Source: an uncultured Syntrophaceae bacterium
GTDB taxonomy: Bacteria; Desulfobacterota; Syntrophia; Syntrophales; UBA2210
Assembly (NCBI GenBank): GCA_964441165.1
Contig: CAYTUH010000002.1
Coordinates: 1-30,973 of the forward strand
Length of the DNA: 30,973 bases
Direction of reading: 5' to 3'
Shown here: positions 1,398-20,847 of the stretch, piece after piece
How positions within the stretch are numbered: the stretch's first letter is position 1
Layout: every line of letters begins with the position of its first letter
Translations under genes and position numbers: made by a program
The notes under the pieces: model-generated
The model's database searches: none
What the model was told of the DNA's origin: nothing
What the model saw: only the letters and a program-made list of their open reading frames with translations

Positions 1398-1451
1398 ACT
1401 TATCTATGGTTGCCTTGATTCAGCGGTTGATGCGTGCAGTTCGGTTCATTC

Positions 1452-2836: not shown

Positions 2837-3946
2837 TCAGTCCTGAAAAAACGCCCTCACCTCTTGAGCAACATGTGCGATTTGAACATGAGAAAGCTCG
2901 GGATACATGGGAAGTGAGAGGAATTCATCAGCACATTTTTCGGCTATGGGAAACATCCCCCGTTTTAGTCCAAGATGCCTGTAGGCATCCTGCAGATGAA
3001 TGGGAAGGGGGTAGTGAATGCCGCAATATATGCTTTTCTCTGCAAGTCCTTTCAGAAGTTCGTCGCGGTGGTTTGTCCGAATCGCGTAAATGTGATAGAT
3101 GTGGTGTGTATATTCAGCTTCCTGCGGCGGTATGATACCGTCCGTTCCTGACAAAAGGTCGTTATATAAACGGGCGTTTTTTCTTCGGCTTTCGTTCCAT
3201 GACGTAAGATGTTTCAATTTCGTGCTCAGGATGGCGCCCTGAATGCCGTCCATACGGGCGTTCCATCCCACCATTGTGTGCTGATATTTCACCGTCTGAC
3301 CATGATCGCGAAACATCTTCATCGCATGTGCCAGATTTTCGTTATTTGTCACGATGGCTCCGCCTTCACCGTAGGCACCGAGATTTTTGCCCGGATAGAA
3401 ACTGAAGGCACCCGCATCTCCCATTGCCCCCGCCTGTTGCTTTCCCTTGTAAAGGGCCCCATGGGCCTGGCAGGCATCCTCGATGACAGGAAGCCCGTAT
3501 TTTTCGGCAATCGCGATGATCGGATCCATGTCAGCCATCTGGCCGAAAAGGTGAACGGGAATAATTGCTCTGGTCTTCGAAGTAATGGCCGACTCGACCA
3601 GGGAAGGGTCCATGGTATACGTATGGGGTGATACATCGACAAAGACGGGTGTGGCACCGCAGAAACTGATTGCCTCGGCAGTGGCGATGAATGAATTCGG
3701 TACGGTTATCACTTCATCGCCGGGACCGATTCCGAGCATGATAAGCGGGATCCAGAGCGCCTCGGTTCCGCTCCCGACGGCCACGGCATATTTACAGTGA
3801 CAGAAGGTAGCGAAATCCTTTTCAAACTGTTCGACAAAGGGCCCTCCGGCAAAGGCTGTTTCGTCGATAACCCTGGTAATGGCTTCGTTTATCTCGTCTC
3901 GTATTGATTCATACTGCAACTTCAGATCAAGAAACGGTACGCGCAC
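2837..3946 (-). CDS. DegT/DnrJ/EryC1/StrS PLP-dependent sugar aminotransferase (WbpE/WlbC-like)
   Basis: PVHLFGQ, IEDACQAHGA and FSFYPGKNLGAYGEGG (PLP lysine) motifs. Confidence 0.95.
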   Translation of the reverse strand: MRVPFLDLKLQYESIRDEINEAITRVIDETAFAGGPFVEQFEKDFATFCHCKYAVAVGSGTEALWIPLIMLGIGPGDEVITVPNSFIATAEAISFCGATPVFVDVSPHTYTMDPSLVESAITSKTRAIIPVHLFGQMADMDPIIAIAEKYGLPVIEDACQAHGALYKGKQQAGAMGDAGAFSFYPGKNLGAYGEGGAIVTNNENLAHAMKMFRDHGQTVKYQHTMVGWNARMDGIQGAILSTKLKHLTSWNESRRKNARLYNDLLSGTDGIIPPQEAEYTHHIYHIYAIRTNHRDELLKGLAEKSIYCGIHYPLPIHLQDAYRHLGLKRGMFPIAEKCADEFLSLPMYPELSHVQIAHVAQEVRAFFQD

Positions 3947-3977
3947 GTCAATCCCTCCCTGATGAAAGTCCGAACTC

Positions 3978-4466
3978 TCAGTACGGCAGTTCTTGTATCG
4001 TTTTCAGCACTCTCGCGGGGTTACCGGCGACAATCGTATTCGGCGGCACGCTCTTCGTGACAACACTACCGGCTCCTATGATTGCATTTTCACCGATGGT
4101 CACCTTACTCAGGATTGTGGAACCTGATCCTATGGAAGCACCCCTCCTCACCATTGTCGGTTCAACCTGCCAATCCGCTTCAGACTGCAATGAGCCGTCG
4201 GGATTCGTGGCTCGGGGATATGTGTCATTGATAAACGTCACATTGTGTCCTACAAAGATATTATCCTCCATCACCACTCCTTCGCAGATGAAGGTGTGGC
4301 TTGAAATTTTGCAATTGCTGCCGATCTTCGCATTTTTCTGAATCTCAACGAAGGCGCCGATCTTCGAGTGATCACCAATGGAACACCCGTACAGATTGAT
4401 ATATTGTGATAACTTTACATTGCTGCCGAGCTTCACATCATCGGTAATTGACTGAAAGGTCTTCAT
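3978..4466 (-). CDS. Hexapeptide-repeat sugar N-acetyltransferase (WbpD/WlbB-like)
   Basis: IGAFVEIQKNAKIGSNCKISSHTFICEGV, GASIGSGSTIL, VAGNPAR. Start moved to ATG 4466, which forms an ATGA overlap with the upstream stop at 4463-4465. Confidence 0.92.
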   Translation of the reverse strand: MKTFQSITDDVKLGSNVKLSQYINLYGCSIGDHSKIGAFVEIQKNAKIGSNCKISSHTFICEGVVMEDNIFVGHNVTFINDTYPRATNPDGSLQSEADWQVEPTMVRRGASIGSGSTILSKVTIGENAIIGAGSVVTKSVPPNTIVAGNPARVLKTIQELPY

Positions 4467-5464
4467 ACATTCACGGCCCTTCCCATTTGCCTCAACGATT
4501 GCGTTGCCGCCTCCAGTAGCTGCACGACTCTCAACCCTGCCTGTCCGTCGTTTACCGGAGTTACCCCGTTCATCACGCATTCGATGAAATAATCCGCCTC
4601 CACCGCCAGCGCTTCCATCCGGTCAATCCTGGGGATCCAGACATCCCCGGAGCGGTAGTTGACCAGGAGGTCATGAATACTTTCCCTGGAACTCACGTGA
4701 ACGCCGCGATCGTACACTTTTATCTTTTCATCGGCATCGAGATCGTTCCAGACCAGCATTTTCTTGTCGCCGCTGATCAATATGTTCCTGACCTTCACCG
4801 GAGAGAGCCAGTTGACATTGAAATGGCCGATCATACTGTTGGAGAAAAAGACGGTCACGAAGGCGGTATCCTCATGGGAATTCAGGTGCGCACTACCCGT
4901 GGCGACAATCGCTCGCGGATTCTCGTCAATGACATAATCCATGATCGACAAATCGTGGGGAAGCAGATCCCACAAGACATTAATATCATGCTGAAAAAGG
5001 CCGAGATTCACCCGTGTGGAGTCAAAATAGTAGAGGTTCCCCAAGACATTTTCCGAAATGATTTCCCTGATTTTTTTTACCGCACCCGTAAAAAGGAAGG
5101 TGTGATCGACCATAATCGTGAGGTGCTTTTTTTCGGCCAGATCGATAAGCTCTTTTGCCTGGGCAACAGTTGAAGCAAAGGGTTTCTCAATGAAAACATG
5201 TTTCCCGTTTTCAAGAGCCTTTTTTGCCAGTTGATAATGGGTAAATACCGGAGTCACGATTGCGACAGCATCGATGTCGACGGCAGTAAGAACGTCGTCA
5301 CAATCCGACGACAGCTTGACATGAGGATATGACTTTCCTGCCTTGCGGAGCCGTTCCTTGTCACAATCACAGATGCAGACGACTTCCGATCCCTCGGCAA
5401 TACTGAAGTTACGGACTATATTAGGACCCCAGTAACCGTAACCAATGACTGCAATCCTAAGCAT
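4463..5464 (-). CDS. Gfo/Idh/MocA NAD-dependent oxidoreductase (WbpB/WlbA-like)
   Basis: IAVIGYGYWG Rossmann motif, HVFIEKP, DLLPHD. Start taken at ATG 5464, preceded by GGAGGG. Confidence 0.93.
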   Translation of the reverse strand: MLRIAVIGYGYWGPNIVRNFSIAEGSEVVCICDCDKERLRKAGKSYPHVKLSSDCDDVLTAVDIDAVAIVTPVFTHYQLAKKALENGKHVFIEKPFASTVAQAKELIDLAEKKHLTIMVDHTFLFTGAVKKIREIISENVLGNLYYFDSTRVNLGLFQHDINVLWDLLPHDLSIMDYVIDENPRAIVATGSAHLNSHEDTAFVTVFFSNSMIGHFNVNWLSPVKVRNILISGDKKMLVWNDLDADEKIKVYDRGVHVSSRESIHDLLVNYRSGDVWIPRIDRMEALAVEADYFIECVMNGVTPVNDGQAGLRVVQLLEAATQSLRQMGRAVNV

Positions 5465-5483
5465 TTTTCCCTCCCTTGCATCT

Positions 5484-6614
5484 CTAATATGCGCCTTTAC
5501 CAAGCAAGACGACCCAGGGCGTCTTTATAATGATCTTTATATCAAGCCAGAGAGACCATTCCCGAATGTATTTAAGGTCCAGGCGTACCATTTCATCGAA
5601 ACTACAGGAGCTTCTGCCGTTGACCTGCCAGAGTCCCGTAATACCAGGTTTAACTTCAATGATACGTCTCATGTGCCAGAGTTTGTAGTGGTCACACTCA
5701 TAGGGTATGGGAGGTCGCGGTCCCACAAGAGACATATCGCCTTTCAGTACATTGATGAATTGCGGTAGTTCGTCGATGCTCGATTTTCGTAAAAACCGGC
5801 CGAGGCTGGTGATTCTCGTATCATCCTTCATCTTGTAAATGCCTCGTGGTCCAATCGCACCATCACCTTCACCATTGATAAGATGTCTGACATATTCCTG
5901 ATGGCAGCGGGGGCTGCAGTCTTCGTACATGGTTCTGAATTTCAGAAAGGTAAATCGTTGCCCCAGAAACCCTGCACGTTCCTGCCTGAAAAATATCGGC
6001 CCCTTCGAGGAAATCTTGATCAGGATTGGTACGACAAGTAAAAAGGGAGAGAAAATGACGAGGCCCACAAGGCTTCCGGCAACATCCATGAATCGTTTCA
6101 TGCAATAGGATATATTGCCGTGACTGTTCTTCCTGACCGCCTCGGGATAGAAAAGCTTTACCGATCCCGTTCCACTGCCCCCGTTATCCCTCTCAGGAAA
6201 CCAGGATTCGCAAAACTTGATCTGGTCGACATATTGTTTTTCCAGTACTGCGGACAAAGAAGTTTTTATGCGGCATGATATGGTGCTGTGAACTGTTTCG
6301 TTTCGTTCACCCGTTTCGGTAAAAAGGATTCCGATGACCGTCCCCTTTGAATACCACCCCTTTACATCAGTCTCTCGTGTCGTGCAGGACAATTGATCTG
6401 CTATCTTTTTTACTATTTTTTTCCTACACTCATCACTGACATCCCGAATGTCAATAGACATTAGAAGAAAGGGCCGGGCCGACCGCTCCGTTCGCTTTCT
6501 CTCCAGACGAAGCATATCCCGGAAATAATCTTCGTCATGCAGCCGGAGGTCAAGATAGGCATGACCGTTCGAAATAATATTATTTCTTTTTATTTCTTGA
6601 ATTAGTCTCATCAT
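5484..6614 (-). CDS. Priming sugar transferase (Bac_transf, WcaJ/PssA-like C-terminal domain) with an N-terminal degenerate GGDEF-like domain
   Basis: C-terminal KRFMD, one TM helix, FLKFRTM, DTRIT.LGRFLRKSSIDELPQF.NVLKGDMSLVGPRP, KPGITGLWQV. N-terminal YFRDMLRLERKRTERSARPFLLMSIDI..RETDVKGWY. Confidence 0.92.
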   Translation of the reverse strand: MMRLIQEIKRNNIISNGHAYLDLRLHDEDYFRDMLRLERKRTERSARPFLLMSIDIRDVSDECRKKIVKKIADQLSCTTRETDVKGWYSKGTVIGILFTETGERNETVHSTISCRIKTSLSAVLEKQYVDQIKFCESWFPERDNGGSGTGSVKLFYPEAVRKNSHGNISYCMKRFMDVAGSLVGLVIFSPFLLVVPILIKISSKGPIFFRQERAGFLGQRFTFLKFRTMYEDCSPRCHQEYVRHLINGEGDGAIGPRGIYKMKDDTRITSLGRFLRKSSIDELPQFINVLKGDMSLVGPRPPIPYECDHYKLWHMRRIIEVKPGITGLWQVNGRSSCSFDEMVRLDLKYIREWSLWLDIKIIIKTPWVVLLGKGAY

Positions 6615-7539
6615 TTATCACAAAACCCTGCGATAAAAACGTATTCCGGGACAATCACCGATGTCCCAGACATTTAATTCATGGTCTCGATACACAAATG
6701 ATTCTAATTGACAGATTGGGCGTACAACCCCCTGCGCACTGGAATTCTTGCGGATCAGGGAAGTATCAAATTGCATGCGATTGGACGACGAGATGTGAGA
6801 ACGGCCATTACAATAGAAGGATAACGCGTAATTCCCTCTCATGCAGGAATTGAGAGAGTGCGGAAAAAAGAAAGGGATGCCCTCTGCCGCGAATCAGTGC
6901 CACATAATTCTCAGCCAGGAATACCTTCAGGTTTCACTGCGTGTGATTCACAAAAGACACTGGAATTATAGTATGCTTCAACGTACCAACATACCGTTCC
7001 AAGATGAAATGATTATGGATAACGATTCTGCTGTTGTCTCTGAATTTGAATATACAACTTTCCCTTCCAGAAAACGGAAGCCCGGAGAAGATGAAAAACC
7101 AATCTACAGTTCCGGATTGAATTGCAGGCGAACCATCGCCAGGATCAACCTGTCGATTCAGGGTAATACGGAACGCCTCCTTGACAATTCGTCTTTCAAC
7201 TTTCTGCTATAAAAGAACCGTGGTTGTAAAGCCACCCGATAAAGTCCTACCGGGGTATTATATTTATATCCTTGACTGAAGGCCCGGGACACGCAACAAC
7301 TCATTTCTTCAATCGTCAAACCGTGGCGCTACGTCCATCTTTTCTGCATTCGCGCAACAAGTACTGTATTGCTTTCTGATCTTGAGCCTTGTCTTTGTAT
7401 ATTCAATTTTAGAAACAGAGATTATATTTGTGCACCTTATGGTGACAATTACGGAAACAAATTAAACATATTTTCAATCTGATTTATCTGAACCTATACA
7501 TACCCCCAAAAATGTATAGGCTTTCAGTTGCATGTTGAA

Positions 7540-7552
7540 AATCAAACAGTTA
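7540..7552 (+). promoter_or_regulatory. IHF-consensus site
   Basis: AATCAAACAGTTA matches WATCAANNNNTTR exactly and lies in AT-rich intergenic DNA. Confidence 0.45.
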
Positions 7553-7597
7553 CGTTTAAATTGTTAAAAGGTACTGCCATATTGAAAAAGAGTTTTC

Positions 7598-7626
7598 AGA
7601 ATAAAGAAGTTTTAATACAAAGTCAA
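7598..7626 (-). promoter_or_regulatory. Putative sigma-70 promoter facing the sugar-biosynthesis genes
   Basis: Minus-strand TTGACT-N17-TATTCT; AT-rich DNA raises the chance of a random match. Confidence 0.35.
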
Positions 7627-7807
7627 TAAAAAATTGACAACTTTTTGTATTAATATGGTTTTTCGTAATGCCTGCATTTGATTTTGACTATACTAAACTA
7701 TAACTTTGCACCCTATTCTATCCACTCGCACCACTAAAAACCACTTCATCGCATTGTAATATTGGCAGTGAAAAATCAGGTGATTTGACGGCTGCCACCG
7801 CCTCTTT

Positions 7808-8962
7808 TCAGATCCTTTGGGAAGGGTCGTCCTCGTCGACGAGAGGCGGCTGAACATGTATTTTTTGACTCTTATTTTTCAGGATATTGATTTCATGAAG
7901 CAATTTGATTCTGTTTTCCATGCAGTTCCGTAATCCCTGGGTGAGTTCAAGTATCATTGCATCCCGTTCCTTTTCGGATGAGGTGAAATTCCCCAGAGCG
8001 GCGGTGAGCAATTCCATACTCTTATTCAGATTACCGGACATATTCTCAAGTACGTCGATCCGCCTCTCCAACTCGTCCATCCTTTTCACCAGACTCACTT
8101 TATTGGCAATATGTCGATGTGAACTCCTGCCGGACTGCTTTTCTCGTGGAAGAACATCTCCGATATCTCGGAGTTTCACCACTTCTTCTATCACGTCCTT
8201 CCCGATGATCGACCGTTCCTCCGCAAACCCGTGAACCAGGGCGGCATCACAGAGAATGTTGACAAGGCGCGGGAGTCCTCCTGAATAGTGATAGACGGCC
8301 TGAACCGCATCGTCGTCAAATATTTCCAGGTTTCGAGCCCCGGCCACCCACATGCGGTGATTGATGTACTGTGTCACTTCGTCCCCGGAAAGGCCGGTCA
8401 GATGCCAGTATACGGTTACGCGCTGCAGGAGTTGTTCGAGATGCCGTTTTCTGAGCTTGATCTTTAAATCGGGCTGCCCGATGAGGAAGATCTGGATAAG
8501 GTGGTTCTTATCGGATTCAAGGTTTGAAAGCAGACGAATTTCTTCAAGTGTTTTATCGGAGAGATTCTGTGATTCATCGACGATCAGGGCGACACGTTTC
8601 TTCTCGGAGTATTTACCGAGCAAAAAGTTGTAAAACATACCTATCAGTTGTGATTTATCCTTGCCATTCACGGCAAGATCAAATTCCTGGCAGACCATTT
8701 TGAGGAACTGCGTTGGTTGTATGATAGTGTGGCTTATGAAGGCAATCTCAATGTCCGGTTTCAGTTTTCTCAGAAAGAGATTGAGCAGGGTTGTTTTGCC
8801 CGATCCGATTTCTCCGGTAATGACGACAAAGCCCTTGTTTTCCATGATCGCATATTCAAGATGCGCGTAGGCTTCTTCATGACTTTGACTCATATAAAAG
8901 TAATTGGGGTCCGGTGTCAGATCAAAGGGCTTTTCCCGGAACCCGTAAAATGATTCATACAT
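7808..8962 (-). CDS. ExeA-like AAA ATPase (XrtA/PEP-CTERM system-associated type) with C-terminal coiled coil
   Basis: MYESFYGFREKPF..TPDP, Walker A GEIGSGKT, Walker B LIVDESQ, LIGQP, SGGLPRLVN. Confidence 0.92.
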   Translation of the reverse strand: MYESFYGFREKPFDLTPDPNYFYMSQSHEEAYAHLEYAIMENKGFVVITGEIGSGKTTLLNLFLRKLKPDIEIAFISHTIIQPTQFLKMVCQEFDLAVNGKDKSQLIGMFYNFLLGKYSEKKRVALIVDESQNLSDKTLEEIRLLSNLESDKNHLIQIFLIGQPDLKIKLRKRHLEQLLQRVTVYWHLTGLSGDEVTQYINHRMWVAGARNLEIFDDDAVQAVYHYSGGLPRLVNILCDAALVHGFAEERSIIGKDVIEEVVKLRDIGDVLPREKQSGRSSHRHIANKVSLVKRMDELERRIDVLENMSGNLNKSMELLTAALGNFTSSEKERDAMILELTQGLRNCMENRIKLLHEINILKNKSQKIHVQPPLVDEDDPSQRI

Positions 8963-8970
8963 GACTCACA

Positions 8971-9801
8971 TTAATCCCGCACTTTATTCAGTACCGTTCC
9001 CATAATCGGTCGTCCCTTCAGAAGTTCCATTGCCCGCTCAAAATCATCCTTACGCGTTTTCTCCGATTCAACCACCATTATAATACCATCCATATACCGG
9101 GCCAGGACAAGGGAATCGGCACTTGTCAAGAGCGGGGGACTGTCGAAAATGACGAACAACCGGTCATATCGCTCTTTTATCCGGCGAATCAGTATCTTCA
9201 TTGGCTCAGTATCCAGAAGTTCCGACGAATTCTGAATCGGGACACTACCGGAGATAATGTTCAGTCGGGGGATTTTCGGATCGATTACGATATCCGACAG
9301 AGCAGCATCACCTTTTAAATAATGCGCAAGACCCTGTTCAACATCAAATCCCAGGAGTCTATGGATCGACGGGTTTCGCAAATCGGCATCCACAAGAAGT
9401 ATGGTTCTATCCATCTGTTGCGAGAGGGCGATGGCAAGATTGATGGCCGTTGTCGTTCTTCCCTCTCCATTTTTGGCACTGGCGATCATCAGCGTGTTTT
9501 CGTTATTTTCATTCATGGCATGCATGATCTGCGTGCGGAGAATCTTTATCCGGTCTGCGATGATGTTTCCATGACAGACTGAGATGATGCGGTTTTTCTC
9601 CAGATTGCGAAAGTCCAGGCCTTTGATCTGTGCATTCGCAGTGAGGAAGTCCAACTCATTGTCCATTGACGCATATTCCATGTGCGACGGCGAGCGGCGA
9701 CGAGATCCATCGACGGCCACATTTTCAAATGTAAGTGGATTTTCACTGCGCTCTTTTCGTGCGTCTTTCGCTTTTTCCAAGGCCTTTCTTAATTTACTCA
9801 T
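8971..9801 (-). CDS. Stand-alone BY-kinase (CpsD/CapB family) with variant Walker A
   Basis: SAKNGEGRTT (Walker A-like), LLVDADLRNP (A'), VIFDSPP (B), GTVLNK. Confidence 0.9.
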   Translation of the reverse strand: MSKLRKALEKAKDARKERSENPLTFENVAVDGSRRRSPSHMEYASMDNELDFLTANAQIKGLDFRNLEKNRIISVCHGNIIADRIKILRTQIMHAMNENNENTLMIASAKNGEGRTTTAINLAIALSQQMDRTILLVDADLRNPSIHRLLGFDVEQGLAHYLKGDAALSDIVIDPKIPRLNIISGSVPIQNSSELLDTEPMKILIRRIKERYDRLFVIFDSPPLLTSADSLVLARYMDGIIMVVESEKTRKDDFERAMELLKGRPIMGTVLNKVRD

Positions 9802-9871
9802 GGCATCGCCTTCCTTTATTCGCGTGTGTGTATTTCAAAAATCGTTCTATCCGTGCTGCGAGAGAAGAAGC

Positions 9872-11593
9872 CTAAAATTGTATCATTAATGTTCTCTGCA
9901 CGTTCAACCATACTATGTCCAGGGGCATGTAGAAGAAATGTACCACCAATAACGCCATAATGAGACCACCACTTGTCAGTACCGTAAAAAGGGTTGCGCG
10001 AAGGCGTCTCCGCGTAACTTCCGCGTCGGTCACGATTAAAGGAATCGCGGCGAGCAACGGAAGTGGGGTGAGTGCACCAATTTCGTGCGGTGTTTTGATT
10101 GAATGATCGAAGTTTTCCTGAAGTAACGTAAGGCCACCACCCAACCCGATGGCAAGGAACAACCCCATGACGATGATTCTGATTCGATTCGGCTTTGAGG
10201 GGGCTTCCGGCGTATGTGCCGACTCTATGATCACAAAGCGCTCCCCATGCTGCGTTTCCTCCATCCCCCGCGCCACCCTTGCTTCCAGGAGCTTACTCAT
10301 GATCTCATTATATTTTTCCTTTGCATTCGTATAATCCCCAATAATCCCGTAATATTCCTTTTCAATCATCGGTGTTTTCTCGATCCGCTGCTGATAAAGG
10401 GCTATTTTTTCTTTGATTTCGTTCTTTTCTTTCAGGTACGCCTCAATTTCCAGAATCGTCGTGTCCAATTGCGTGCGGAGACTCACATAGGCCGGCCTTT
10501 CCTCTTTCTGGGAGGAGAAGACCGCTGTCGTAACTTCTTTTCCTGATGCCTGCAGTTCCCGGGATAAGACATCTATCTCCTTTGAAAGTTTGACCACATC
10601 GGGATGTTTCGACCCTAATGAGGTGCTCATCGTTGCCAATTGTTCCTGCAATCCTGTGAGTCGTTTTTCTTTTTCACCAGCGCCCGTTTCTCCTCTGGCA
10701 TGAGCTTCGAGCTCTTTGATCTCTTTCTGCAATTTGATCACATCGGGGTGTTTTTCCGATAAACTCGATTTCAGATTGATCAATGCAAGCTGCAGCGATT
10801 CTATCCGGTCATTCGGACTGGCGGTGAATTCTCCTTTCCCGCCCCCTGACGCTCCCGATTCCAGCGATGCGAGCTGTCCTTCCAGATAGACTTTTCTTTC
10901 CTGCAGCATACTGATCTGCAGAGATAGCTGGTCAAAATCTCTGTTCAGCTGCTCTATCGCCTGCATGTTCACAGCGCTGTGTTCGGGAAGTTCGCCCATA
11001 TGAATCTTCTTGAATTCACTTAGTTGATTTGCATATCCCCCAATTTGTTCCCTGAGATCGTTCAATTCCTGTTGCAGAAATTCGGTGGTACGGGTGGCCT
11101 GGTTTTCCCGCTTCTTCAAATTTTCTTCAAGATAGAGGGAGGCGAGAACATTGGCGACTCTCTGAACAACAGGCGGCCTCTCGCCTTCATAGGAAAGGGT
11201 AAACGCTATTGTTGATGACTGCCTTCCCTCTTGCGCCTGAATCGTCTCAAGATTGATGTCCTTTCGCATCTTATCGATTACGATTTCGGTGGCGTACTTT
11301 TTCCTCAATTCAGGATAGAGATCAAACTGGTTAATGATATTGAGGAGATTGGAACGACTCAGAATCCGCTGCGTAATGGTCTGAAGCCGCTCCTCTATAT
11401 AGCCGGTCACCGTTGACTTGACATACTCCTCGGGAATCTGCTGCGACTCGATAAGAATGGTCGACTTGGCGACATAGATGGGCGGCAGGACAAAGGCAAT
11501 CACCACGGCACCGATAAAGACCGGTATGGCGGACAACACAAAAATCAGGCTCCTCCGTCTGATCAATCTCTTGATATCCCCGATAGTCGTCAT
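9872..11593 (-). CDS. Polysaccharide chain-length determinant / co-polymerase (GumC/Wzc N-terminal type, no kinase domain)
   Basis: N-terminal TM followed by LPPIYVAKSTIL, long coiled coil, two S.KHPDV repeats, P..P.KPNR and C-terminal TM helices. Confidence 0.92.
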   Translation of the reverse strand: MTTIGDIKRLIRRRSLIFVLSAIPVFIGAVVIAFVLPPIYVAKSTILIESQQIPEEYVKSTVTGYIEERLQTITQRILSRSNLLNIINQFDLYPELRKKYATEIVIDKMRKDINLETIQAQEGRQSSTIAFTLSYEGERPPVVQRVANVLASLYLEENLKKRENQATRTTEFLQQELNDLREQIGGYANQLSEFKKIHMGELPEHSAVNMQAIEQLNRDFDQLSLQISMLQERKVYLEGQLASLESGASGGGKGEFTASPNDRIESLQLALINLKSSLSEKHPDVIKLQKEIKELEAHARGETGAGEKEKRLTGLQEQLATMSTSLGSKHPDVVKLSKEIDVLSRELQASGKEVTTAVFSSQKEERPAYVSLRTQLDTTILEIEAYLKEKNEIKEKIALYQQRIEKTPMIEKEYYGIIGDYTNAKEKYNEIMSKLLEARVARGMEETQHGERFVIIESAHTPEAPSKPNRIRIIVMGLFLAIGLGGGLTLLQENFDHSIKTPHEIGALTPLPLLAAIPLIVTDAEVTRRRLRATLFTVLTSGGLIMALLVVHFFYMPLDIVWLNVQRTLMIQF

Positions 11594-11689
11594 TTCTCCC
11601 CCTTATGTAATAATTCCTGGACCTATTACCTATCCCTTGCCGGCACATCGACCTCTATCCCTACAGCACCCTTCTTTTTGTCATATGAT

Positions 11690-12844
11690 TCATACCCGCA
11701 TCGGAAAATTGAAATTCAGGATCAGAAAGACCCGGTTCCTGTCCATTGTTCTGTCTCTCCCAAAGGACTTGTCGTTCTGACGAGAATAAGCGTAAAACAC
11801 TTTCAGGGAATGATCCTGAGTCAGTCTGTAGGACAGTGAAGGCGAAATCTCGAGATGTTTGGTGTTTCGTTCACTCCACGAATCGACGCTCTTGGTACGA
11901 TAGAGAGATCCGGAACACTGGAGGTCGAGCTGCCGGGTAAGCATGGCCGAGAGGATAAGGGAAAGCCGATTAACCTCGACAGTATCCCCCTCGGCGGAAA
12001 AATCGAGGTCTCGCGAATATGCCAGATTGGCTTTAACCCGCTGCCATGATTTTCCCAAGTCCACATTAGCTGTCCATCCCCAGTTTTCCTCGGATTCTCG
12101 CGACACTGAATCGATAACCGCGTAACGCACACCAGCGCTTATGGCGGCTCGCAAGGTCTCGGAAATCTGGTGATTGAGTCCGACGGACAGACCGTAATTA
12201 TCGGTCACGCTCCGGTCGGAATCGTTCAGCCCATAGGACGTCGAAACCGTCAGGGTATCCCGGCCGCTGTTGAAGCCGTACTGATAGGAAAGGCCGGCAT
12301 CCTGCTTCTCGGAATCGGCATATTCCCTGAATTCATAGGTGCTTCGAGAAAAATCATAACTAATCGTCATACTTGATGTTTCCCCGGTTCGGACATTCAG
12401 CCCACATCCGGCACGGTATCTGTCGCGGTCGGACCGCCGTTCGACGATTCCTGTTTCTTCCAGCAGAGAATCGAGGGTGGAATCCCTCGCATAACCGGCA
12501 TTGGCGGAGAAAGTGATGCGTTCCTGAATCTCCCGTATCCCGTCGATATTGAACCGTCCCCTGTTTTCATTGCGCGCCGCATCGCGCGCATAGAAGATGA
12601 AGTCGCCTCCGGCCTGACTGGTCAGGCTGAAACGGTCCACCGCATAATTGAAGTTCACCGCGGGACTCACCGTCCCTACATAGTCGTCAATCCTGTCGGT
12701 TTCCGTAAAATCGACATTATCGTTGTATTCTCCCTTGAGGCCGACCGACGGCGTTACCGTTATCTCGGCGGAATGCAACGGCAGAGCGGAAATGCATACG
12801 AAGAGGATGGATAAAACAAGGGGGTATCTCATACGCATGAACAT
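11690..12844 (-). CDS. Outer-membrane beta-barrel protein of the polysaccharide export locus
   Basis: Signal peptide, then ITVTPSVGLKGEYNDNV and alternating amphipathic strands rich in Y/F/G; lies between the OPX and co-polymerase genes. Exact start Met is uncertain. Confidence 0.8.
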   Translation of the reverse strand: MFMRMRYPLVLSILFVCISALPLHSAEITVTPSVGLKGEYNDNVDFTETDRIDDYVGTVSPAVNFNYAVDRFSLTSQAGGDFIFYARDAARNENRGRFNIDGIREIQERITFSANAGYARDSTLDSLLEETGIVERRSDRDRYRAGCGLNVRTGETSSMTISYDFSRSTYEFREYADSEKQDAGLSYQYGFNSGRDTLTVSTSYGLNDSDRSVTDNYGLSVGLNHQISETLRAAISAGVRYAVIDSVSRESEENWGWTANVDLGKSWQRVKANLAYSRDLDFSAEGDTVEVNRLSLILSAMLTRQLDLQCSGSLYRTKSVDSWSERNTKHLEISPSLSYRLTQDHSLKVFYAYSRQNDKSFGRDRTMDRNRVFLILNFNFPMRV

Positions 12845-12905
12845 TCCTCATTGTCCGGATTTGCCGGACTCTGAAACATGCACGTTATGCGAGGTATCAT
12901 TTGTT

Positions 12906-13466
12906 TCACGGCACCACCACGATGTCTCCTCGCCTGAGAATAATATTCTGCTCCAGATGTTTTCCTTTCTTCACCTCGTCATAGTCAAAGGGGAAGCTTT
13001 TCGCGCCGTCCTCGTGCCGTCGCAGGATCAGGATACTGCCCGACGAGGCGAAGGTATTCAAATCACCGGCCATGGCTATGATCTGCATGACATCTGTCCG
13101 CATCGTGATGGGAAACTGCCCGGGACTGTTTACCTTTCCCACAACATAGGCCATCAGGCTGTTCGCGCTCAGGAGCATGACGGTCACCTCGGCGTCAGGT
13201 ACGTATTCGCTCAACTTTTTTGAGACCACGTCGCGCAGTTCGGGCACGGAAAGCTCCGTCACATCGACATCGCCGATCAAAGGGAATGACATGATCCCAT
13301 CGGGGGGGACGATAATCTGACGTGAAAGTTCCTCATCCTTCCAGACGGAAATTTCCAGGACATCACCGGGTCCGAGTCTGTAGACCTCTTCCTGTGCCGC
13401 TGCAATGGGCATGTTCACTGTCAATACTACTGCCACCAGGACATAAAGTATCACCTTCTTTTCCAT
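12906..13466 (-). CDS. Short OPX / Wza-like polysaccharide export protein (Poly_export + SLBB)
   Basis: YRLGPGDVLEISVW, VPPDGIMSFPLIG, V.GKVNSPG, L..GDIVVVP. Start moved to ATG 13466 (AAGGAG 9 nt upstream), giving 186 aa. Confidence 0.92.
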   Translation of the reverse strand: MEKKVILYVLVAVVLTVNMPIAAAQEEVYRLGPGDVLEISVWKDEELSRQIIVPPDGIMSFPLIGDVDVTELSVPELRDVVSKKLSEYVPDAEVTVMLLSANSLMAYVVGKVNSPGQFPITMRTDVMQIIAMAGDLNTFASSGSILILRRHEDGAKSFPFDYDEVKKGKHLEQNIILRRGDIVVVP

Positions 13467-13544
13467 CCGCCGCATCTCCTTTGATAATGTTCTCACATTC
13501 CCCAAGATATAGTATCCAAATCCCGTGAGTGGGTGCCTCACCCC

Positions 13545-15842
13545 CTATTGGGACAGCCTCCTCAATGCCGATTCGGCATCCCGATACCCTGGGAAACGCT
13601 CACCACTCTCCATGGCAAGCTGCAGATACTTCCTTCCTTTCTCAGGCTCGTCAAGTCGCAGGAATATCATTCCCAGATGATAGTTGATGGCGGGGTTGTC
13701 CGTACCTTCACCATATGAAGCCGCCAACAGGTCCCGCGCTTTTGCGAACTCTCCCTTCCGGTACTGTATCCAGGCCACCGTGTCCATCAAGGCCGGATTC
13801 GCCCGGTATTTCTCGATGAATGGTTCGACAAGTGCTTCCGCTTTCTCAAGGTTTTCAGGCGTCGATTCATGTTCCGCCAGATAGAAGGCCAGATTATTCG
13901 CCGCAATGATGTTCCCGGGGTTCAGGGACAGTATGTCCTCGTATATTGTCTCGGCTTCCTGAAGTTCCCCCTTTTGTTCGAGAAGGATAGCAATCATGAG
14001 GGACACTAATGCATTCCCCGGGGTTTTTGCTTCTATGCTGCGGTAATGTTCCAGGGCCTTGTCGAGGGAACCCTCTGATTCTTCGAGCTGAGCGAGATTG
14101 AAGAGGGCGTTCAGATTATCGGGGTCAACTTCAAAGGCCTTCTCAAAAAAAGCGCGCGCACCGGACAGGTCTTTTTCGATGGCATAGATTTTTCCCATTA
14201 AAATATAATAGGCGGGGTTTTGGGGGCTCTGCTCGATCTGGCGTTGAACCCGCTGCTTCGCCGCTTCCAGTTCGTTCCTTCGAATTTTCAGACTCACGAT
14301 CTGAGCGAGGGCAGGGACATAATTGACATCCTTTTCCAGGGCCTTTTCGAAAAAGGACTCGGCGCCATGTTCATCCTCTTCCAGGATGCAGGCAAAACCC
14401 ATTTTCAGGTGAGAGAGGGGAGAGTCCGGTTCCAACTCCAAAAGACGCGAATAGTAGTGACGCGCCGATTCGGCATTCTTTTCCCTGAGCGCCATGTCGC
14501 CGAGGGCATGAAGCGCATCCTTCACATCGGGATTGCGGGACAGAATCTGACGGTAAAGGTCTTTCGCGATTTCGACGTCGCCATGCAACTGGTGTGATTT
14601 TGCGAGGCTCAGCAATGCGATGATGTCTTCCGGCTTTTCCTGCAGAACGGTTCGGAATTCCGCGATGGCCCCCAGGTAATCCTTCCTTGTAAAAAGGACA
14701 TTCCCCTTCAATGTGTGGGCAGCCACGTCTTTTGAATTCTCCTTCAGTACCGCATCCACAATTTCCATGGTGCGATTGTATGCTCCGTCTTTATAGTAAA
14801 TGTCGGCCAGAAATAGCTTCGCCTGGAGTACCGCCGGACCGCTCTTTGCCGTGGTCACGAATTGATTCAACAGGTTCACGGCATCGTCCGTCCGCTTTTC
14901 TTCAATTCGCTTCCGCGCCAGCAATGCATAGGGGGCAAATTCGGCAGGGAAATCCCGGATTGCTCTTTGCAGCACCACGACGGCATCTTCGTCCCGTTCG
15001 TCAGCGGCATAAAACTGGGCCATTTTGAGGCGCAGCGCCAGATCGTCAGGCCTGAGCGTAACCAGTTCTTTCAAGATCTCTTCCGCCTCTTCTTCTCGTC
15101 CCGTTCGATTATAGAACCCTGCAAGAAGCAACTTTGAACGATCCGAATCGGCTTCTTCGCGAACCAGGGCCTGATACTCCGATTCAGCGTCGACAAGGCG
15201 ATTCTCACTTTCCAGGATCCTGATGAGAAGCATCCTCCCCCGCATGTTGCCCGCATTTCGATTCAGAAGCGTACGCAGGATCTCTTCAGCACCGGCGGCA
15301 TCCCTCTGTTTGAGCCTCAGGGACGCCATGAGAAGATAAGGGTCATCCTTCTCCCCCTCCCCCATGCCCGTGATGAGTGTTTCGAGGATCGCCTCCGCCT
15401 CGACGTCCTTTCCGGCAAGCATCAGGCATTTTGCCTTCAGTATGAGAGCCTCGTCATCTGAGGGATTTTGAGAGAGCACCAGTTCCGCCTTTTCGAGGGC
15501 TTTCTCCTTCTGCTTGCCCAGGAGATAGATTTCACCCAGCGCAAGCTGCGCATCCATCAGGCCGGCATCGATCTCGACCGCTTTCGACAGCGCCCCATGG
15601 GCCTTCTCAATATTGTTCACTTTCAGAAAGGACATGCCCAGTGCAGCGTAGGCATCACCGAAGGTAGGATCGATTTTGATCGCGTTCTGGTAATTCAGGA
15701 TCGCCTTCGTATACTCGCCTTTTTGCTGGAACTCGTTACCCTTTTCATAAAATTTTTCTCTTCTCGATTCAGGACTTCCGCAACCGACCAGTATGATTAA
15801 CACAAAGAGTACGGCACGTTTCCAATCAGTGAAGAAGGTCAT
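13545..15842 (-). CDS. TPR-repeat lipoprotein, PrsT-like (PEP-CTERM system)
   Basis: Lipobox LVGC, many TPR repeats, and C-terminal NNLAF..A, DTVAWIQYRKG, INYHLGM. Confidence 0.88.
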   Translation of the reverse strand: MTFFTDWKRAVLFVLIILVGCGSPESRREKFYEKGNEFQQKGEYTKAILNYQNAIKIDPTFGDAYAALGMSFLKVNNIEKAHGALSKAVEIDAGLMDAQLALGEIYLLGKQKEKALEKAELVLSQNPSDDEALILKAKCLMLAGKDVEAEAILETLITGMGEGEKDDPYLLMASLRLKQRDAAGAEEILRTLLNRNAGNMRGRMLLIRILESENRLVDAESEYQALVREEADSDRSKLLLAGFYNRTGREEEAEEILKELVTLRPDDLALRLKMAQFYAADERDEDAVVVLQRAIRDFPAEFAPYALLARKRIEEKRTDDAVNLLNQFVTTAKSGPAVLQAKLFLADIYYKDGAYNRTMEIVDAVLKENSKDVAAHTLKGNVLFTRKDYLGAIAEFRTVLQEKPEDIIALLSLAKSHQLHGDVEIAKDLYRQILSRNPDVKDALHALGDMALREKNAESARHYYSRLLELEPDSPLSHLKMGFACILEEDEHGAESFFEKALEKDVNYVPALAQIVSLKIRRNELEAAKQRVQRQIEQSPQNPAYYILMGKIYAIEKDLSGARAFFEKAFEVDPDNLNALFNLAQLEESEGSLDKALEHYRSIEAKTPGNALVSLMIAILLEQKGELQEAETIYEDILSLNPGNIIAANNLAFYLAEHESTPENLEKAEALVEPFIEKYRANPALMDTVAWIQYRKGEFAKARDLLAASYGEGTDNPAINYHLGMIFLRLDEPEKGRKYLQLAMESGERFPGYRDAESALRRLSQ

Positions 15843-16577: not shown

Positions 16578-16694
16578 ATGTCACCGGCCCTGGTTACGTT
16601 TTACGGGATAAAGCCAACGAGATCGGGTAAAAATAAATTAATATAATTGAGCAATTGCAATCGTTCTTGCATCCACTTGACCTGCGGCAACGAC

Positions 16695-16710
16695 TGGTAT
16701 CAATTTTGCA
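16695..16710 (+). promoter_or_regulatory. Sigma-54 (-24/-12) promoter of the PEP-CTERM gene
   Basis: TGGTAT-CAATT-TTGCA has exact GG-N10-GC spacing and ends 31 nt before the ATG. Confidence 0.85.
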
Positions 16711-16741
16711 TGTTTTTTTAAAAGATAGAGGAGGTGGTACG

Positions 16742-17524
16742 ATGTGTAAAAAAATAACTATACTTTTAGTGGCCGCAGTTCTGCTCACCGGCATAAGCTC
16801 CCTTTCTTGGGGTTCATATATATTGCAGTACCAGGGCAACATTACCAGCAGCATCGGTGACGGCACGCTCGTCGCCACGGCAAGCTGGGACTGGGAAAGT
16901 GGAACCTCAAACTATTCCACTCTGGAATGGTCCGTCTATCAGGAGAACGGCACGGGCGAGTGGAAATATGAATATACTTTTACTGTCCCTGCAAAAGCCA
17001 TCAGTCACAGCATTATCGAGGTCTCTCAGAATTTCCCGGGGTTTCAATACACGGCCACGGGTACGGATCCCTCGACAGGTTCCCAGAATCTGATCATCGA
17101 TCCCGACGCACCGAAGTGGTATGAATCAACGGGCAGTTCAGGTTCCAACCCCGGCATGCCCGATGTCGACCTGGAGCCCGGCGGCGAGGGAGACCTGTAC
17201 GGAATCAAGTGGGATGCCCCGGATATCGCAAACTATGATCCGCTCGTCTTTTCAATAATCATTCTCACCGACCGTGAGCCCATGTGGGGTGATTTCTACG
17301 CCAAGGACGGCCAGGACGGCGCCACAAAAGTATATGCATACAACAGTGGTTTCGGCCAGGATACGACGGCCCCGGTTGCCGACGGCAACGCCAGGACGAT
17401 CGACGGGCTCGCCTGGGTACTGGTCCCCGATACGGAAGTGACGGTTCCCGAGCCGACCACGCTGCTCCTCCTTGGGCTGGGCCTCATCATTCTGGGGGGA
17501 TGTGTACGAAGGCGCAAATCATAA
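16742..17524 (+). CDS. PEP-CTERM sorting-domain protein
   Basis: GGAGG RBS, signal peptide MCKKITILLVAAVLL, and C-terminal VPEPTTLLLLGLGLIILGGCVRRRKS (PEP + TM + basic tail). 260 aa from ATG 16742. Confidence 0.97.
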   Translation: MCKKITILLVAAVLLTGISSLSWGSYILQYQGNITSSIGDGTLVATASWDWESGTSNYSTLEWSVYQENGTGEWKYEYTFTVPAKAISHSIIEVSQNFPGFQYTATGTDPSTGSQNLIIDPDAPKWYESTGSSGSNPGMPDVDLEPGGEGDLYGIKWDAPDIANYDPLVFSIIILTDREPMWGDFYAKDGQDGATKVYAYNSGFGQDTTAPVADGNARTIDGLAWVLVPDTEVTVPEPTTLLLLGLGLIILGGCVRRRKS

Positions 17525-17675: not shown

Positions 17676-17762
17676 GCCGGAGTGGTGAAATTGGTAGACG
17701 CAGGGGACTCAAAATCCCCCGGGCTTATGCTCATCTCGGTTCGAATCCGAGCTCCGGCACCA
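17676..17762 (+). tRNA. tRNA-Leu (CAA)
   Basis: GCCGGAG/CTCCGGC acceptor stem, GGGGA-CTCAAAA-TCCCC anticodon arm, long variable arm, GGTTCGAATCC T-arm, encoded CCA. Confidence 0.98.
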
Positions 17763-20771: not shown

Positions 20772-20847
20772 GGGGATGTAGCTCAGCTGGGAGAGCGCGG
20801 CGTTCGCAATGCCGAGGTCAGGGGTTCGATCCCCCTCATCTCCACCA
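20772..20847 (+). tRNA. tRNA-Ala (CGC)
   Basis: 76 nt starting GGGGATG (G3:U70 pair), CGGCG-TTCGCAA-TGCCG anticodon arm, GGTTCGATCC, encoded CCA. Confidence 0.98.

What the first reader, a model, noticed from the sequence alone, without database searches (positions are those of the whole stretch)
6195..6545. Priming glycosyltransferase with a degenerate GGDEF-like domain that keeps the RxxD I-site: candidate c-di-GMP gate on EPS initiation
Seen: residues ~25-140 read YFRDMLRLERKRTERSARPFLLMSIDI...TTRETDVKGWYSKGTVIGILF. Established: GGDEF domains begin with a pattern like F...L..E..R..R...L.L...D.D, and the c-di-GMP I-site is RxxD five residues before GG(D/E)EF (PleD: RAIDLPCRYGGEEF). Here R80-E-T-D83 (6377-6366) is at that spacing, while the catalytic motif is replaced by SKGTV. 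Inactive GGDEF domains with an intact RxxD act as c-di-GMP receptors (PelD, PopA). Known allosteric control acts mostly on synthase-type systems. Inference: the first committed step of a Wzy-type, PEP-CTERM-linked pathway may be directly controlled by c-di-GMP. I cannot confirm this is undescribed without a literature search.
Basis: partly seen in the sequence, partly recalled or inferred. Interest (0 to 1): 0.75.

Follow-up and report, generated by a model that had tools for sequence, protein, structure and literature searches.

The report
Dead GGDEF sensor domain on sugar-priming enzyme
The enzyme that starts building an exopolysaccharide here carries an N-terminal, catalytically dead copy of the domain that normally makes c-di-GMP; it keeps that domain's c-di-GMP-binding residues, so the biofilm signal may switch the pathway on at its first step, but ligand binding is untested.

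Summary
The gene at 5484-6614 (minus strand, 376 aa) has two parts. The C-terminal part is a complete small monotopic phosphoglycosyl transferase (PF02397, E 4e-67; PglC-like fold). The N-terminal part (residues ~25-142) is a truncated, degenerate GGDEF fold:
- hhalign gives 97.8% probability (E 7.7e-13) against c-di-GMP-bound cyclases.
- The AlphaFold2 model has pLDDT 88, and all top 49 Foldseek PDB hits are GGDEF domains.

The catalytic parts are gone. GG(D/E)EF is replaced by variable residues (SKGTV here), the GTP-binding loop is deleted and the C-terminal subdomain is absent.

The inhibitory-site residues are kept. In 127 non-redundant homologues, R80 and D83 are each present in 126, position 115 is K or R in 124, and G86-W87 next to the site are invariant.

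The domain was found only on phosphoglycosyl transferases, in about 1,430 clusters at 50% identity. All 80 listed genome hits (of 85) are uncultured Syntrophales-type deltaproteobacteria, Acidobacteriota, Nitrospirota or Fibrobacterota.

The locus is an XrtA/PEP-CTERM exopolysaccharide locus. I found no paper describing this fusion.

c-di-GMP binding, and control of the transferase by it, is a well-founded inference (about 0.5), not a shown fact.

The parts
5484..6614 (-). Whole gene: 376-aa protein made of a GGDEF-like N-domain and a small monotopic phosphoglycosyl transferase (stop codon 5484-5486)
   Evidence: ORF list. More than 120 full-length homologues have the same architecture at 93-100% coverage. 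The full-length AlphaFold2 model has pLDDT 81.5.
6189..6542 (-). Degenerate, truncated GGDEF-like domain (residues 25-142): helix a1, then b1-a2-b2-b3-a3-b4
   Evidence: hhalign 97.8%; PDB profile hits; AlphaFold2 pLDDT 88 and secondary structure; top 49 Foldseek hits are all GGDEF.
6480..6503 (-). E38-R-K-R41-T-E-R44-S45 at the end of helix a1. E38 is invariant; R41 and R44 are each 126/127
   Evidence: E38 and R44 align with residues that are invariant in the four c-di-GMP-bound cyclases.
6450..6452 (-). D55, at the position of the first metal-binding Asp of active cyclases; not conserved in the family (D79, N20, E14, H7, S4)
6366..6377 (-). R80-E-T-D83: the RxxD inhibitory-site motif
   Evidence: Translation. 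Aligned to the RxxD of 6zxm, 3ign and 5euh. R is 126/127 and D is 126/127; 218 of 219 domain copies carry it.
6354..6359 (-). G86-W87, invariant in 127/127. W87 replaces the Arg that precedes GG(D/E)EF in real cyclases
6336..6350 (-). S89-K-G-T-V93: the b2-b3 hairpin in place of the GG(D/E)EF catalytic motif; variable across the family
6270..6272 (-). R115 on helix a3; K or R in 124/127. It aligns with the first Arg of the cyclase 'ERIR' motif, which is PleD R390 by my numbering from memory
6114..6188 (-). Flexible linker (residues 143-167) with a conserved (L/F)-Y156-P157-(D/E) motif
   Evidence: Low pLDDT over 144-170; Y156 119/120 and P157 112/120.
5487..6113 (-). Monotopic phosphoglycosyl transferase catalytic domain (residues 168-376) with a predicted re-entrant helix-break-helix at 168-202
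   Evidence: PF02397 E 4e-67; TIGR03025 E 5.5e-87; Foldseek PglC 8e37 E 1.5e-12 with target TM 0.78, and WbaP 8t53.
5769..5774 (-). D281-E282, the catalytic Asp-Glu dyad in the S-x-DELPQ motif; invariant
2837..5464 (-). Downstream sugar-modification cassette: GFO-type 3-dehydrogenase, hexapeptide N-acetyltransferase and DegT aminotransferase. It probably makes the di-N-acetylated UDP-sugar used by the transferase
   Evidence: NCBIfam hits. The genes co-occur with the transferase in 57, 47 and 41 of 85 8-kb loci, in the same order in L086, L088 and L090.
7808..15842 (-). Upstream XrtA/PEP-CTERM export and assembly genes: ATPase, tyrosine autokinase, chain-length determinant, outer-membrane protein, export protein, PrsT
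   Evidence: TIGR03015, TIGR03018, TIGR03007, TIGR03016, TIGR03027, TIGR02917.

Best explanation
The gene encodes the initiating (priming) phosphoglycosyl transferase of an XrtA/PEP-CTERM exopolysaccharide pathway. Its cytoplasmic N-terminus is a truncated GGDEF domain that can no longer make c-di-GMP. It keeps the allosteric inhibitory site: R80, D83, R/K115 and the Arg residues at the end of helix a1.

Most likely the domain is a c-di-GMP receptor. When the messenger rises, it binds this site, probably as an intercalated dimer that bridges two N-domains as in PleD and WspR. Through the short linker to the re-entrant membrane helix, binding changes the activity of the catalytic domain. I expect activation. 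That would couple commitment of undecaprenyl phosphate and a di-N-acetylated UDP-sugar to the biofilm signal.

Shown here: the domain identity, loss of the catalytic parts, retention of the inhibitory-site residues, an intact transferase, and the locus context.

Inferred: ligand binding, which nucleotide binds, dimerisation, and the direction of the effect.

My rough probabilities:
- dead GGDEF fold: 0.97
- inhibitory-site residues under selection: 0.9
- binds c-di-GMP or a close cyclic dinucleotide: 0.55-0.6
- the full mechanism as stated: about 0.5
For: Fold and homology.

Catalytic decay:
- A six-residue gap lies where FKxxNDxxGHxxGD sits in real cyclases.
- Positions 89-93 are variable and D55 is not conserved.
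- The domain ends after strand b4.

Inhibitory site kept in a dead domain:
- R80 and D83 are each 126/127, position 115 is K/R in 124/127, and R41 and R44 are each 126/127.
- RxxD is present in both copies of the tandem-domain proteins.
- RxxD is not needed for the GGDEF fold, since many real cyclases lack it (my knowledge). Near-total conservation across about 1,430 clusters therefore points to function.

The transferase is intact: PF02397, the invariant DE dyad and a PglC-like fold.

The domain is dedicated to these transferases:
- Every sequence long enough to judge has the catalytic domain after it, fused either directly or through a WbaP-like four-helix and accessory region.
- Apparent stand-alone copies are frameshift artefacts.

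Topology: the N-terminus of monotopic transferases is cytoplasmic (PMC10942596), so the domain can meet the messenger.

Circumstantial evidence: a canonical GGDEF cyclase lies next to the gene in Fibrobacterota-type loci L010, L046 and L076 (divergently transcribed in L010 and L046), and within 8 kb in L055 and L056.

Precedents: PelD and PopA are dead GGDEF domains that use RxxD as a receptor (PelD papers are cited in PMC12802240; PopA from my knowledge).
Against: - No binding or activity data exist.
- The third inhibitory-site position is Lys rather than Arg in two thirds of the family.
- The conserved patch is larger than a canonical inhibitory site (E81, T/I82, K85, invariant G86-W87). The site may therefore be reshaped for another ligand or a protein partner.
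- There is no cyclase, phosphodiesterase or c-di-GMP riboswitch in the 31-kb window.
- Cyclase adjacency is seen in only 5 of 85 loci, all from one lineage.
- The inter-domain arrangement is not confidently modelled.
Confidence: 0.5

Rival explanations
1. The dead GGDEF domain binds no nucleotide. It is a scaffold or dimerisation module, and the conserved RETD-x-KGW and ERKRTERS patch is a protein interface. Possible partners are the catalytic domain, a second protomer, the co-encoded tyrosine autokinase or the XrtA-associated ATPase. Regulation could then come from tyrosine phosphorylation, for example of the conserved Y88 or Y156, as for S. aureus CapM.
For: The conserved patch extends beyond a canonical inhibitory site, with invariant G86-W87 and conserved E81 and K85. 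A tyrosine autokinase and an ATPase are encoded just upstream. Phosphorylation of the small transferase CapM and partner-induced dimerisation of EpsZ are known ways to control these enzymes (PMC12802240). Y156-P157 in the linker is nearly invariant.
Against: It does not explain why exactly the three residues that bind c-di-GMP in real cyclases are the ones kept while the catalytic residues drift. Small monotopic transferases work as monomers (PMC12802240). No predicted interface is available.
Confidence: 0.25
2. The reshaped inhibitory site binds a different small molecule. Candidates are another cyclic dinucleotide such as 3'3'-cGAMP (used by some deltaproteobacteria), pGpG, (p)ppGpp, or a uridine nucleotide or UDP-sugar acting as feedback. 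WbaP's accessory domain senses UMP in this way.
For: W87 replaces the conserved Arg before GG(D/E)EF, and Lys often replaces the third Arg, so specificity may have shifted. Nucleotide feedback on a transferase has a precedent (WbaP and UMP, PMC10942596). Many hosts are deltaproteobacterial lineages.
Against: No GGDEF inhibitory site is known to me to prefer a ligand other than c-di-GMP (my knowledge). The residues that contact guanine and phosphate in c-di-GMP complexes are the ones conserved here.
Confidence: 0.17
3. The domain is an evolutionary relic or folding aid with no regulatory role, and the RxxD match is incidental.
For: RxxD is a short motif. The window protein alone scores below the Pfam threshold.
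Against: R80, D83, G86, W87, E38, R41 and R44 are invariant or nearly so in 127 sequences that share only 31-48% identity, and the family spans about 1,430 clusters. The domain has been duplicated in tandem with the motif kept in both copies.
Confidence: 0.05
4. The domain is an active diguanylate cyclase with an unusual motif.
For: None beyond the fold.
Against: There is no GG(D/E)EF. The GTP-binding loop is deleted, the metal-binding Asp is not conserved, and the C-terminal subdomain that carries the phosphate-binding residues is absent.
Confidence: 0.01

Closest known systems
PelD of Pseudomonas aeruginosa (degenerate GGDEF c-di-GMP receptor of the Pel polysaccharide system)
   Same: A catalytically dead GGDEF domain that keeps RxxD plus a downstream Arg and uses them as a c-di-GMP receptor. 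It switches on polysaccharide synthesis after translation. PelD appears among the Foldseek hits (4dmz, rank 34).
   Different: PelD is a separate membrane protein (transmembrane, GAF and GGDEF parts) and acts in a synthase-dependent pathway. Here the domain is shorter (about 118 residues, no C-terminal subdomain), is fused to the enzyme itself, and sits on a phosphoglycosyl transferase of a pathway with Wzx/Wzy-type export machinery. Binding is unproven.
Inhibitory-site feedback in active cyclases (PleD, WspR, DgcR 6zxm, GcbC 5euh)
   Same: Same fold. RxxD, the helix-a3 Arg and the helix-a1 Arg are all at aligned positions. The proposed cross-linking of two domains by dimeric c-di-GMP is copied from these enzymes.
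   Different: In those enzymes the site inhibits the domain's own catalysis. Here there is no catalysis to inhibit, and the output is a fused transferase.
EpsW-EpsZ of Myxococcus xanthus (PMC12802240), and small monotopic transferases fused to receiver domains
   Same: Post-translational control of polysaccharide synthesis at the initiating transferase through a small cytoplasmic signalling domain.
   Different: The signal there is phosphorylation of a receiver domain, not a nucleotide messenger. EpsW is a separate protein that stabilises a dimer of a large transferase.
WbaP accessory domain PF13727 (PMC10942596)
   Same: An N-terminal cytoplasmic domain on a monotopic transferase that binds a nucleotide and regulates the enzyme allosterically.
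   Different: The fold differs (Rossmann-like versus palm), the ligand is UMP, and it provides product feedback rather than a global signal.
PglC of Campylobacter (small monotopic transferase)
   Same: The catalytic domain has the same fold, 34% identity and the DE dyad.
   Different: PglC has no N-terminal domain. The window enzyme also has an insertion of about 20 residues after the KFRTM motif.

Membership tests
GGDEF domain superfamily (PF00990 fold) | Significant sequence-profile similarity to GGDEF domains | tested here: met
   hhalign 97.8%, E 7.7e-13. The PDB profile search finds GGDEF proteins as its top hits. 61 of 127 members hit PF00990 at E<=1. The window protein alone is below Pfam's cut-off (12.4 versus 23.8 bits).
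GGDEF domain superfamily (PF00990 fold) | Palm-like core (a1, b1-a2-b2-b3-a3-b4) with the motif hairpin between b2 and b3 | tested here: met
   AlphaFold2 secondary structure. The top 49 Foldseek hits are all GGDEF domains.
Active diguanylate cyclases | GG(D/E)EF catalytic motif | tested here: not met
   SKGTV here; positions 89-93 are variable in the family.
Active diguanylate cyclases | GTP-binding loop (FKxxNDxxGHxxGD) and metal-binding Asp | tested here: not met
   Six-residue gap at this loop. D55 is only D79, N20, E14, H7, S4.
Active diguanylate cyclases | C-terminal subdomain (b5-a4-b6-b7) with phosphate-binding Lys and Arg | tested here: not met
   The domain ends after b4 at about residue 142 and runs into the linker.
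Degenerate GGDEF inhibitory-site receptors (PelD/PopA type) | RxxD on the a2-b2 loop just before the hairpin | tested here: met
   R80 and D83 align to cyclase RxxD; each is 126/127.
Degenerate GGDEF inhibitory-site receptors (PelD/PopA type) | Further basic residue on helix a3 (PleD R390, PelD R402) | tested here: met
   R115 aligns to the first Arg of 'ERIR'; K86 and R38 of 127. The PleD and PelD numbering is from memory.
Degenerate GGDEF inhibitory-site receptors (PelD/PopA type) | Measured, RxxD-dependent c-di-GMP binding | not testable with these tools
   Needs DRaCALA, ITC or a structure.
Monotopic phosphoglycosyl transferases (PF02397) | Pfam domain above threshold and a PglC-like fold | tested here: met
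   225.7 bits against a cut-off of 27. PglC 8e37 E 1.5e-12, target TM 0.78.
Monotopic phosphoglycosyl transferases (PF02397) | Catalytic Asp-Glu dyad and re-entrant membrane helix | tested here: met
   D281-E282 invariant. Helix-break-helix at 168-187 and 189-202 in the model.
TIGR03013 (EpsB_2) XrtA/PEP-CTERM system glycosyltransferase | Score above the NCBIfam cut-off | tested here: not met
   160 bits against a cut-off of 393. The best model is the general TIGR03025, at 292.8 against 295.55, and it matches only the C-terminal half.
XrtA/PEP-CTERM exopolysaccharide locus | Marker genes next to the gene | tested here: met
   TIGR03015, 03018, 03007, 03016, 03027, 02917 and 03019 hits. A PEP-CTERM protein lies at 16655-17524. 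The same synteny with a PrsR-like regulator is seen in L086.
XrtA/PEP-CTERM exopolysaccharide locus | Exosortase XrtA itself | tested here: not met
   The ORFs of at least 150 aa that I scanned (plausible gene calls; ORFs lying within annotated genes were not scanned) gave no exosortase match. The gene may lie outside the window.

The most novel reading that the evidence does not exclude
Dimeric c-di-GMP bridges two dead-GGDEF N-domains. In single-domain proteins the bridge forms between two protomers. In the tandem-domain variants it forms within one chain. The bridge switches on the initiating phosphoglycosyl transferase. This would be the first direct second-messenger gate on the undecaprenyl-phosphate commitment step of a Wzx/Wzy-type pathway. 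It would operate in a large, unstudied family spread through uncultured Syntrophales-type deltaproteobacteria, Acidobacteriota, Nitrospirota and Fibrobacterota.
Probability: 0.4. Interest if true: 0.8.

Novelty: new variant of a known kind. Interest (0 to 1): 0.7.

Why it matters
Allosteric control of polysaccharide synthesis by c-di-GMP is well established for synthase-dependent systems such as cellulose, alginate, Pel and PNAG. [quoted passage not shown]

A messenger-sensing domain built into the initiating transferase would place the switch at the step that commits scarce undecaprenyl phosphate. It would also add a new output class to c-di-GMP signalling.

The family is large (about 1,430 clusters at 50% identity) and sits in abundant soil, sediment and groundwater lineages that form flocs and biofilms. 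It offers a compact domain of about 120 residues that is easy to test.

Tried and rejected
- The word-index search with the N-domain alone found nothing. The exhaustive HMMER search and the full-length search were needed.
I replaced it with a degenerate DNA pattern for TRE[TI]D[IV]KGW[YF]. That pattern selects for the motif, so I used it only for taxonomy and synteny, not for conservation counts.
- Model coordinates are not exposed, so I could not measure inhibitory-site geometry or inter-domain contacts.
- A c-di-GMP riboswitch or other Rfam family in the 1.2-kb gap upstream of the gene: none found.
- A canonical cyclase in the window: none found.
- The HD protein at 29328-30785 as an HD-GYP phosphodiesterase: rejected. 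It has no GYP motif and looks like a dGTP triphosphohydrolase.
- Stand-alone N-domain proteins on long contigs: rejected. In L089 and L090 every neighbouring gene is also broken, so these are frameshift artefacts of error-prone assemblies.
- The intergenic region as a conserved non-coding element: it is not more conserved than the flanking genes in the one close relative available.
- O'Toole et al. 2021 (PNAS), which catalogues transferase fusions, is not held. I therefore cannot exclude that this fusion is listed there.
Full report
**1. What is at the coordinates**

The finding lies inside one ORF, 5484..6614 on the minus strand, 376 aa.
- 6377-6366 reads R80-E-T-D83.
- 6350-6336 reads S89-K-G-T-V93.
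- 6503-6480 reads E38-RKRTERS-45.

Pfam finds only a C-terminal bacterial sugar transferase domain (PF02397, residues 173-370, E 3.9e-67). NCBIfam places that half among the exopolysaccharide polyprenyl glycosylphosphotransferases (TIGR03025, E 5.5e-87). The only matches to the N-terminal third are two very weak hits to GGDEF proteins, CbrR and SiaD, at E about 0.1.

**2. The N-terminal domain is a GGDEF fold**

A word-index search with the N-terminus alone found nothing. The full-length protein has more than 120 listed homologues of the same length and 93-100% coverage. For two of them, precomputed Pfam hits already include PF00990. An exhaustive HMMER scan with residues 1-165 found 1,430 clusters (50% identity representatives) at E<=0.001.

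I built a non-redundant alignment of 127 N-domains, A1, which share 31-48% identity to the window protein. Four independent tests give the same answer:
- The A1 profile searched against all PDB sequences returns GGDEF proteins as its top hits (E 3e-4 to 4e-3). Several are c-di-GMP complexes: DgcR 6zxm, 3ign and GcbC 5euh.
- 61 of the 127 members hit PF00990 at E<=1 when scanned alone, best 2.1e-6. No other family is hit by more than two members.
- hhalign of A1 against the four cyclase segments shown gives 97.8% probability, E 7.7e-13, over 109 columns.
- An AlphaFold2 model of residues 25-157 has mean pLDDT 88.2. Its order of elements is a1, b1, a2, b2, b3, a3, b4. Its top 49 Foldseek hits in the PDB are all GGDEF domains, best 6khu at E 5.7e-6 and TM 0.66. 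PelD is at rank 34.

**3. It cannot be a cyclase**

- The alignments open a six-residue gap exactly where active enzymes carry the GTP-binding FKxxNDxxGHxxGD stretch.
- The hairpin that should read GG(D/E)EF is variable across the family.
- The position of the first metal-binding Asp is D in only 79 of 127.
- The model ends after b4, so the C-terminal subdomain of real cyclases is missing.

**4. The inhibitory site is kept**

- HMMER and hhalign both put R80 and D83 on the RxxD of the c-di-GMP-bound cyclases.
- In A1, R80 and D83 are each present in 126 of 127. The single exception is one sequence that lacks both.
- Over all 219 full-length domain copies, 218 read RxxD at the fixed distance from the invariant GW.
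- R115 on helix a3 aligns with the first Arg of the cyclase 'ERIR' motif. By my recollection of the PleD sequence this is R390, the third primary inhibitory-site residue. The position is K in 86 and R in 38 of 127.
- R41 and R44 at the end of helix a1 are each 126/127. R44 aligns with an Arg that is invariant in the four template cyclases. From memory, PleD R313, the secondary inhibitory site that lets dimeric c-di-GMP bridge two domains, lies in this segment.
- G86-W87, directly after RxxD, is invariant. W87 replaces the conserved Arg that precedes GG(D/E)EF.

One detail differs between methods. hhalign makes the hairpin one residue longer.

**5. The rest of the protein and its architecture**

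The catalytic half is intact:
- The D281-E282 dyad in SxDELPQ and many other residues are invariant in 112 full-length homologues.
- The full-length model (pLDDT 81.5, pTM 0.69) has a helix-break-helix at 168-202 and matches PglC (8e37, E 1.5e-12, 34% identity) and WbaP.
- No PDB entry covers both halves.
- The linker (residues 144-170) is modelled with low confidence, so the orientation of the two domains is unknown.

The N-domain appears only with these transferases:
- It is usually fused directly to the small catalytic core.
- It is sometimes present in tandem (P0075, P0121, P0122, P0124), with RxxD in both copies.
- It is sometimes placed ahead of a WbaP-like large enzyme (P0183, P0269).

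Short 'stand-alone' copies on long contigs are artefacts. In L089 and L090 all neighbouring genes are also fragmented.

The N-terminus of monotopic transferases is cytoplasmic (PMC10942596), so the domain is where c-di-GMP is.

**6. Context**

Upstream on the same strand lie six genes: the XrtA/PEP-CTERM-associated ATPase, tyrosine autokinase, chain-length determinant, outer-membrane protein, export protein and PrsT. Downstream lie a GFO-type UDP-GlcNAc 3-dehydrogenase-like enzyme, a hexapeptide acetyltransferase, a DegT aminotransferase and a FemAB-family protein. A PEP-CTERM protein is encoded at 16655-17524. No exosortase, Wzx or Wzy gene is in the window.

A DNA-pattern scan of species-representative genomes found 85 loci. 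All 80 listed are metagenome-assembled genomes of Syntrophales, Syntrophobacterales, Syntrophorhabdales, Bryobacterales, Terriglobia, Nitrospirota and Fibrobacterota or Chitinivibrionales.

Within those 8-kb loci:
- The dehydrogenase, acetyltransferase and aminotransferase accompany the transferase in 57, 47 and 41 cases.
- The tyrosine kinase and the ATPase accompany it in 26 and 19 cases.

The gene order is the same in L086 (53% identity), L088 (86%) and L090. L086 also holds a PrsR-like sigma-54 regulator. The cassette suggests that the donor is a 2,3-diacetamido sugar; this is inference.

A canonical GGDEF cyclase lies next to the transferase gene in L010, L046 and L076 (divergently transcribed in L010 and L046), and within 8 kb in L055 and L056. 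All five are Fibrobacterota-type genomes. The window itself has no cyclase, HD-GYP protein or c-di-GMP riboswitch.

**7. Mechanism**

The best-supported reading is that the N-domain is a c-di-GMP receptor of the PelD/PopA kind, built into the enzyme it controls. The argument has two steps:
- A catalytically dead domain has lost everything needed to make c-di-GMP.
- It has kept, almost without exception across a very large and diverse family, the residues that real cyclases use to bind c-di-GMP allosterically. Those residues are dispensable for the fold.

The retained helix-a1 arginines and the existence of tandem-domain variants fit a model in which dimeric c-di-GMP bridges two N-domains. The direction of the effect (activation) is inferred from the general rule that high c-di-GMP favours matrix production.

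None of this is shown. The Lys at position 115 in most members and the invariant GW leave room for a reshaped site that binds another ligand or a protein partner. The rivals are weighed in their own sections.

**8. Comparison with what is known, and novelty**

Dead GGDEF domains that act as inhibitory-site receptors are known. So are accessory and regulatory domains on these transferases: receiver-domain fusions, EpsW-EpsZ and the UMP-sensing domain of WbaP (PMC12802240, PMC10942596).

What I did not find is a GGDEF-like receptor on a phosphoglycosyl transferase, or any direct c-di-GMP control of this step. Nine completed full-text searches returned nothing relevant. PMC12802240 (November 2025) still describes c-di-GMP control as a feature of synthase-dependent pathways.

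Two caveats apply. The 2021 PNAS survey of transferase fusions is not in the library. Automated annotation has occasionally labelled family members as 'GGDEF domain-containing'.

I therefore rate this a new variant of a known kind, with interest 0.7.

Noticed in passing
window 6615-7807: A 1.2-kb gap with low G+C (0.39-0.45) lies between the XrtA-associated ATPase gene and the transferase gene. It has no convincing ORF and no Rfam match. The gap has the same length in the 86%-identical relative L088, at 78-88% identity, which is no higher than the flanking genes. In more distant relatives (L086, L090) this position holds a NusG paralogue, and in L086 also an outer-membrane protein. It may be a long leader or promoter region of the biosynthetic operon.
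   Followed up: partly
window 2837-5464; L086, L088, L090 and 41-57 of loci L001-L085: A conserved cassette of GFO-type 3-dehydrogenase, hexapeptide N-acetyltransferase and DegT aminotransferase lies directly downstream of the transferase. In L090 a 2-epimerase follows. This resembles the WbpB/WbpE/WbpD route to UDP-2,3-diacetamido sugars, which suggests the initiating sugar.
   Followed up: partly
proteins P0075, P0121, P0122, P0124 (tandem); P0183, P0269 (large type): Some family members carry two GGDEF-like domains in tandem, each with RxxD and GW. Others place the domain ahead of a WbaP-like four-helix bundle and accessory domain.
   Followed up: partly
L010 2-952, L046 2303-3196, L076 2447-3490 (also L055, L056): In Fibrobacterota and Chitinivibrionales genomes, a conserved ~300-aa canonical cyclase (GGEEF or GGDEF with its own RxxD) lies next to the transferase gene, divergently transcribed in L010 and L046. 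Its N-terminal domain was not identified.
   Followed up: partly
L089, L090 (proteins P0137, P0283 and many hits): Many short 'stand-alone' N-domain proteins on very long contigs come from assemblies in which every gene of the locus is split into pieces. These are frameshift errors, not real architectures.
   Followed up: yes
window 5829-5925 (residues 230-262 of the transferase): An insertion of about 20 residues after the KFRTM motif, relative to PF02397 and PglC, holds invariant H238 and conserved Y241 and I246. It is present in the small-type family members but not in the large-type P0269. Its role is unknown; it might contact the N-domain.
   Followed up: no
window 6141-6149 (F155-Y156-P157): A nearly invariant (L/F)-Y-P-(D/E) motif lies in the otherwise variable linker just before the membrane helix. 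With a tyrosine autokinase encoded two genes upstream, the tyrosine is a candidate phosphorylation site.
   Followed up: no
window 4463-5503 and 3978-4580: The longest ORFs of the dehydrogenase and the acetyltransferase overlap their upstream neighbours by 20 and 118 bases. The real starts are probably internal (M14 'MLRIAVIGYG' and M39 'MKTFQS'), which gives short overlaps typical of translational coupling.
   Followed up: no
window 29328-30785: This HD-domain protein is not an HD-GYP c-di-GMP phosphodiesterase. It has no GYP motif and gives weak matches to dGTP triphosphohydrolases.
   Followed up: yes
window 16655-17524, 17676-17759, 20772-20844: A PEP-CTERM sorting-signal protein lies beside the locus, followed by two tRNA genes. 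The region from about 16 kb onward is on the opposite strand and marks the edge of the polysaccharide locus.
   Followed up: no
window 3-1403 (-): A 467-aa ORF runs off the left end. It has no NCBIfam match and only a sub-threshold GT4 match at its C-terminal part. The sequence contains a near-duplicate stretch (HSF[YP]ES[DA]ARIRRYA[EQ]TLVQRGDQ appears twice).
   Followed up: no
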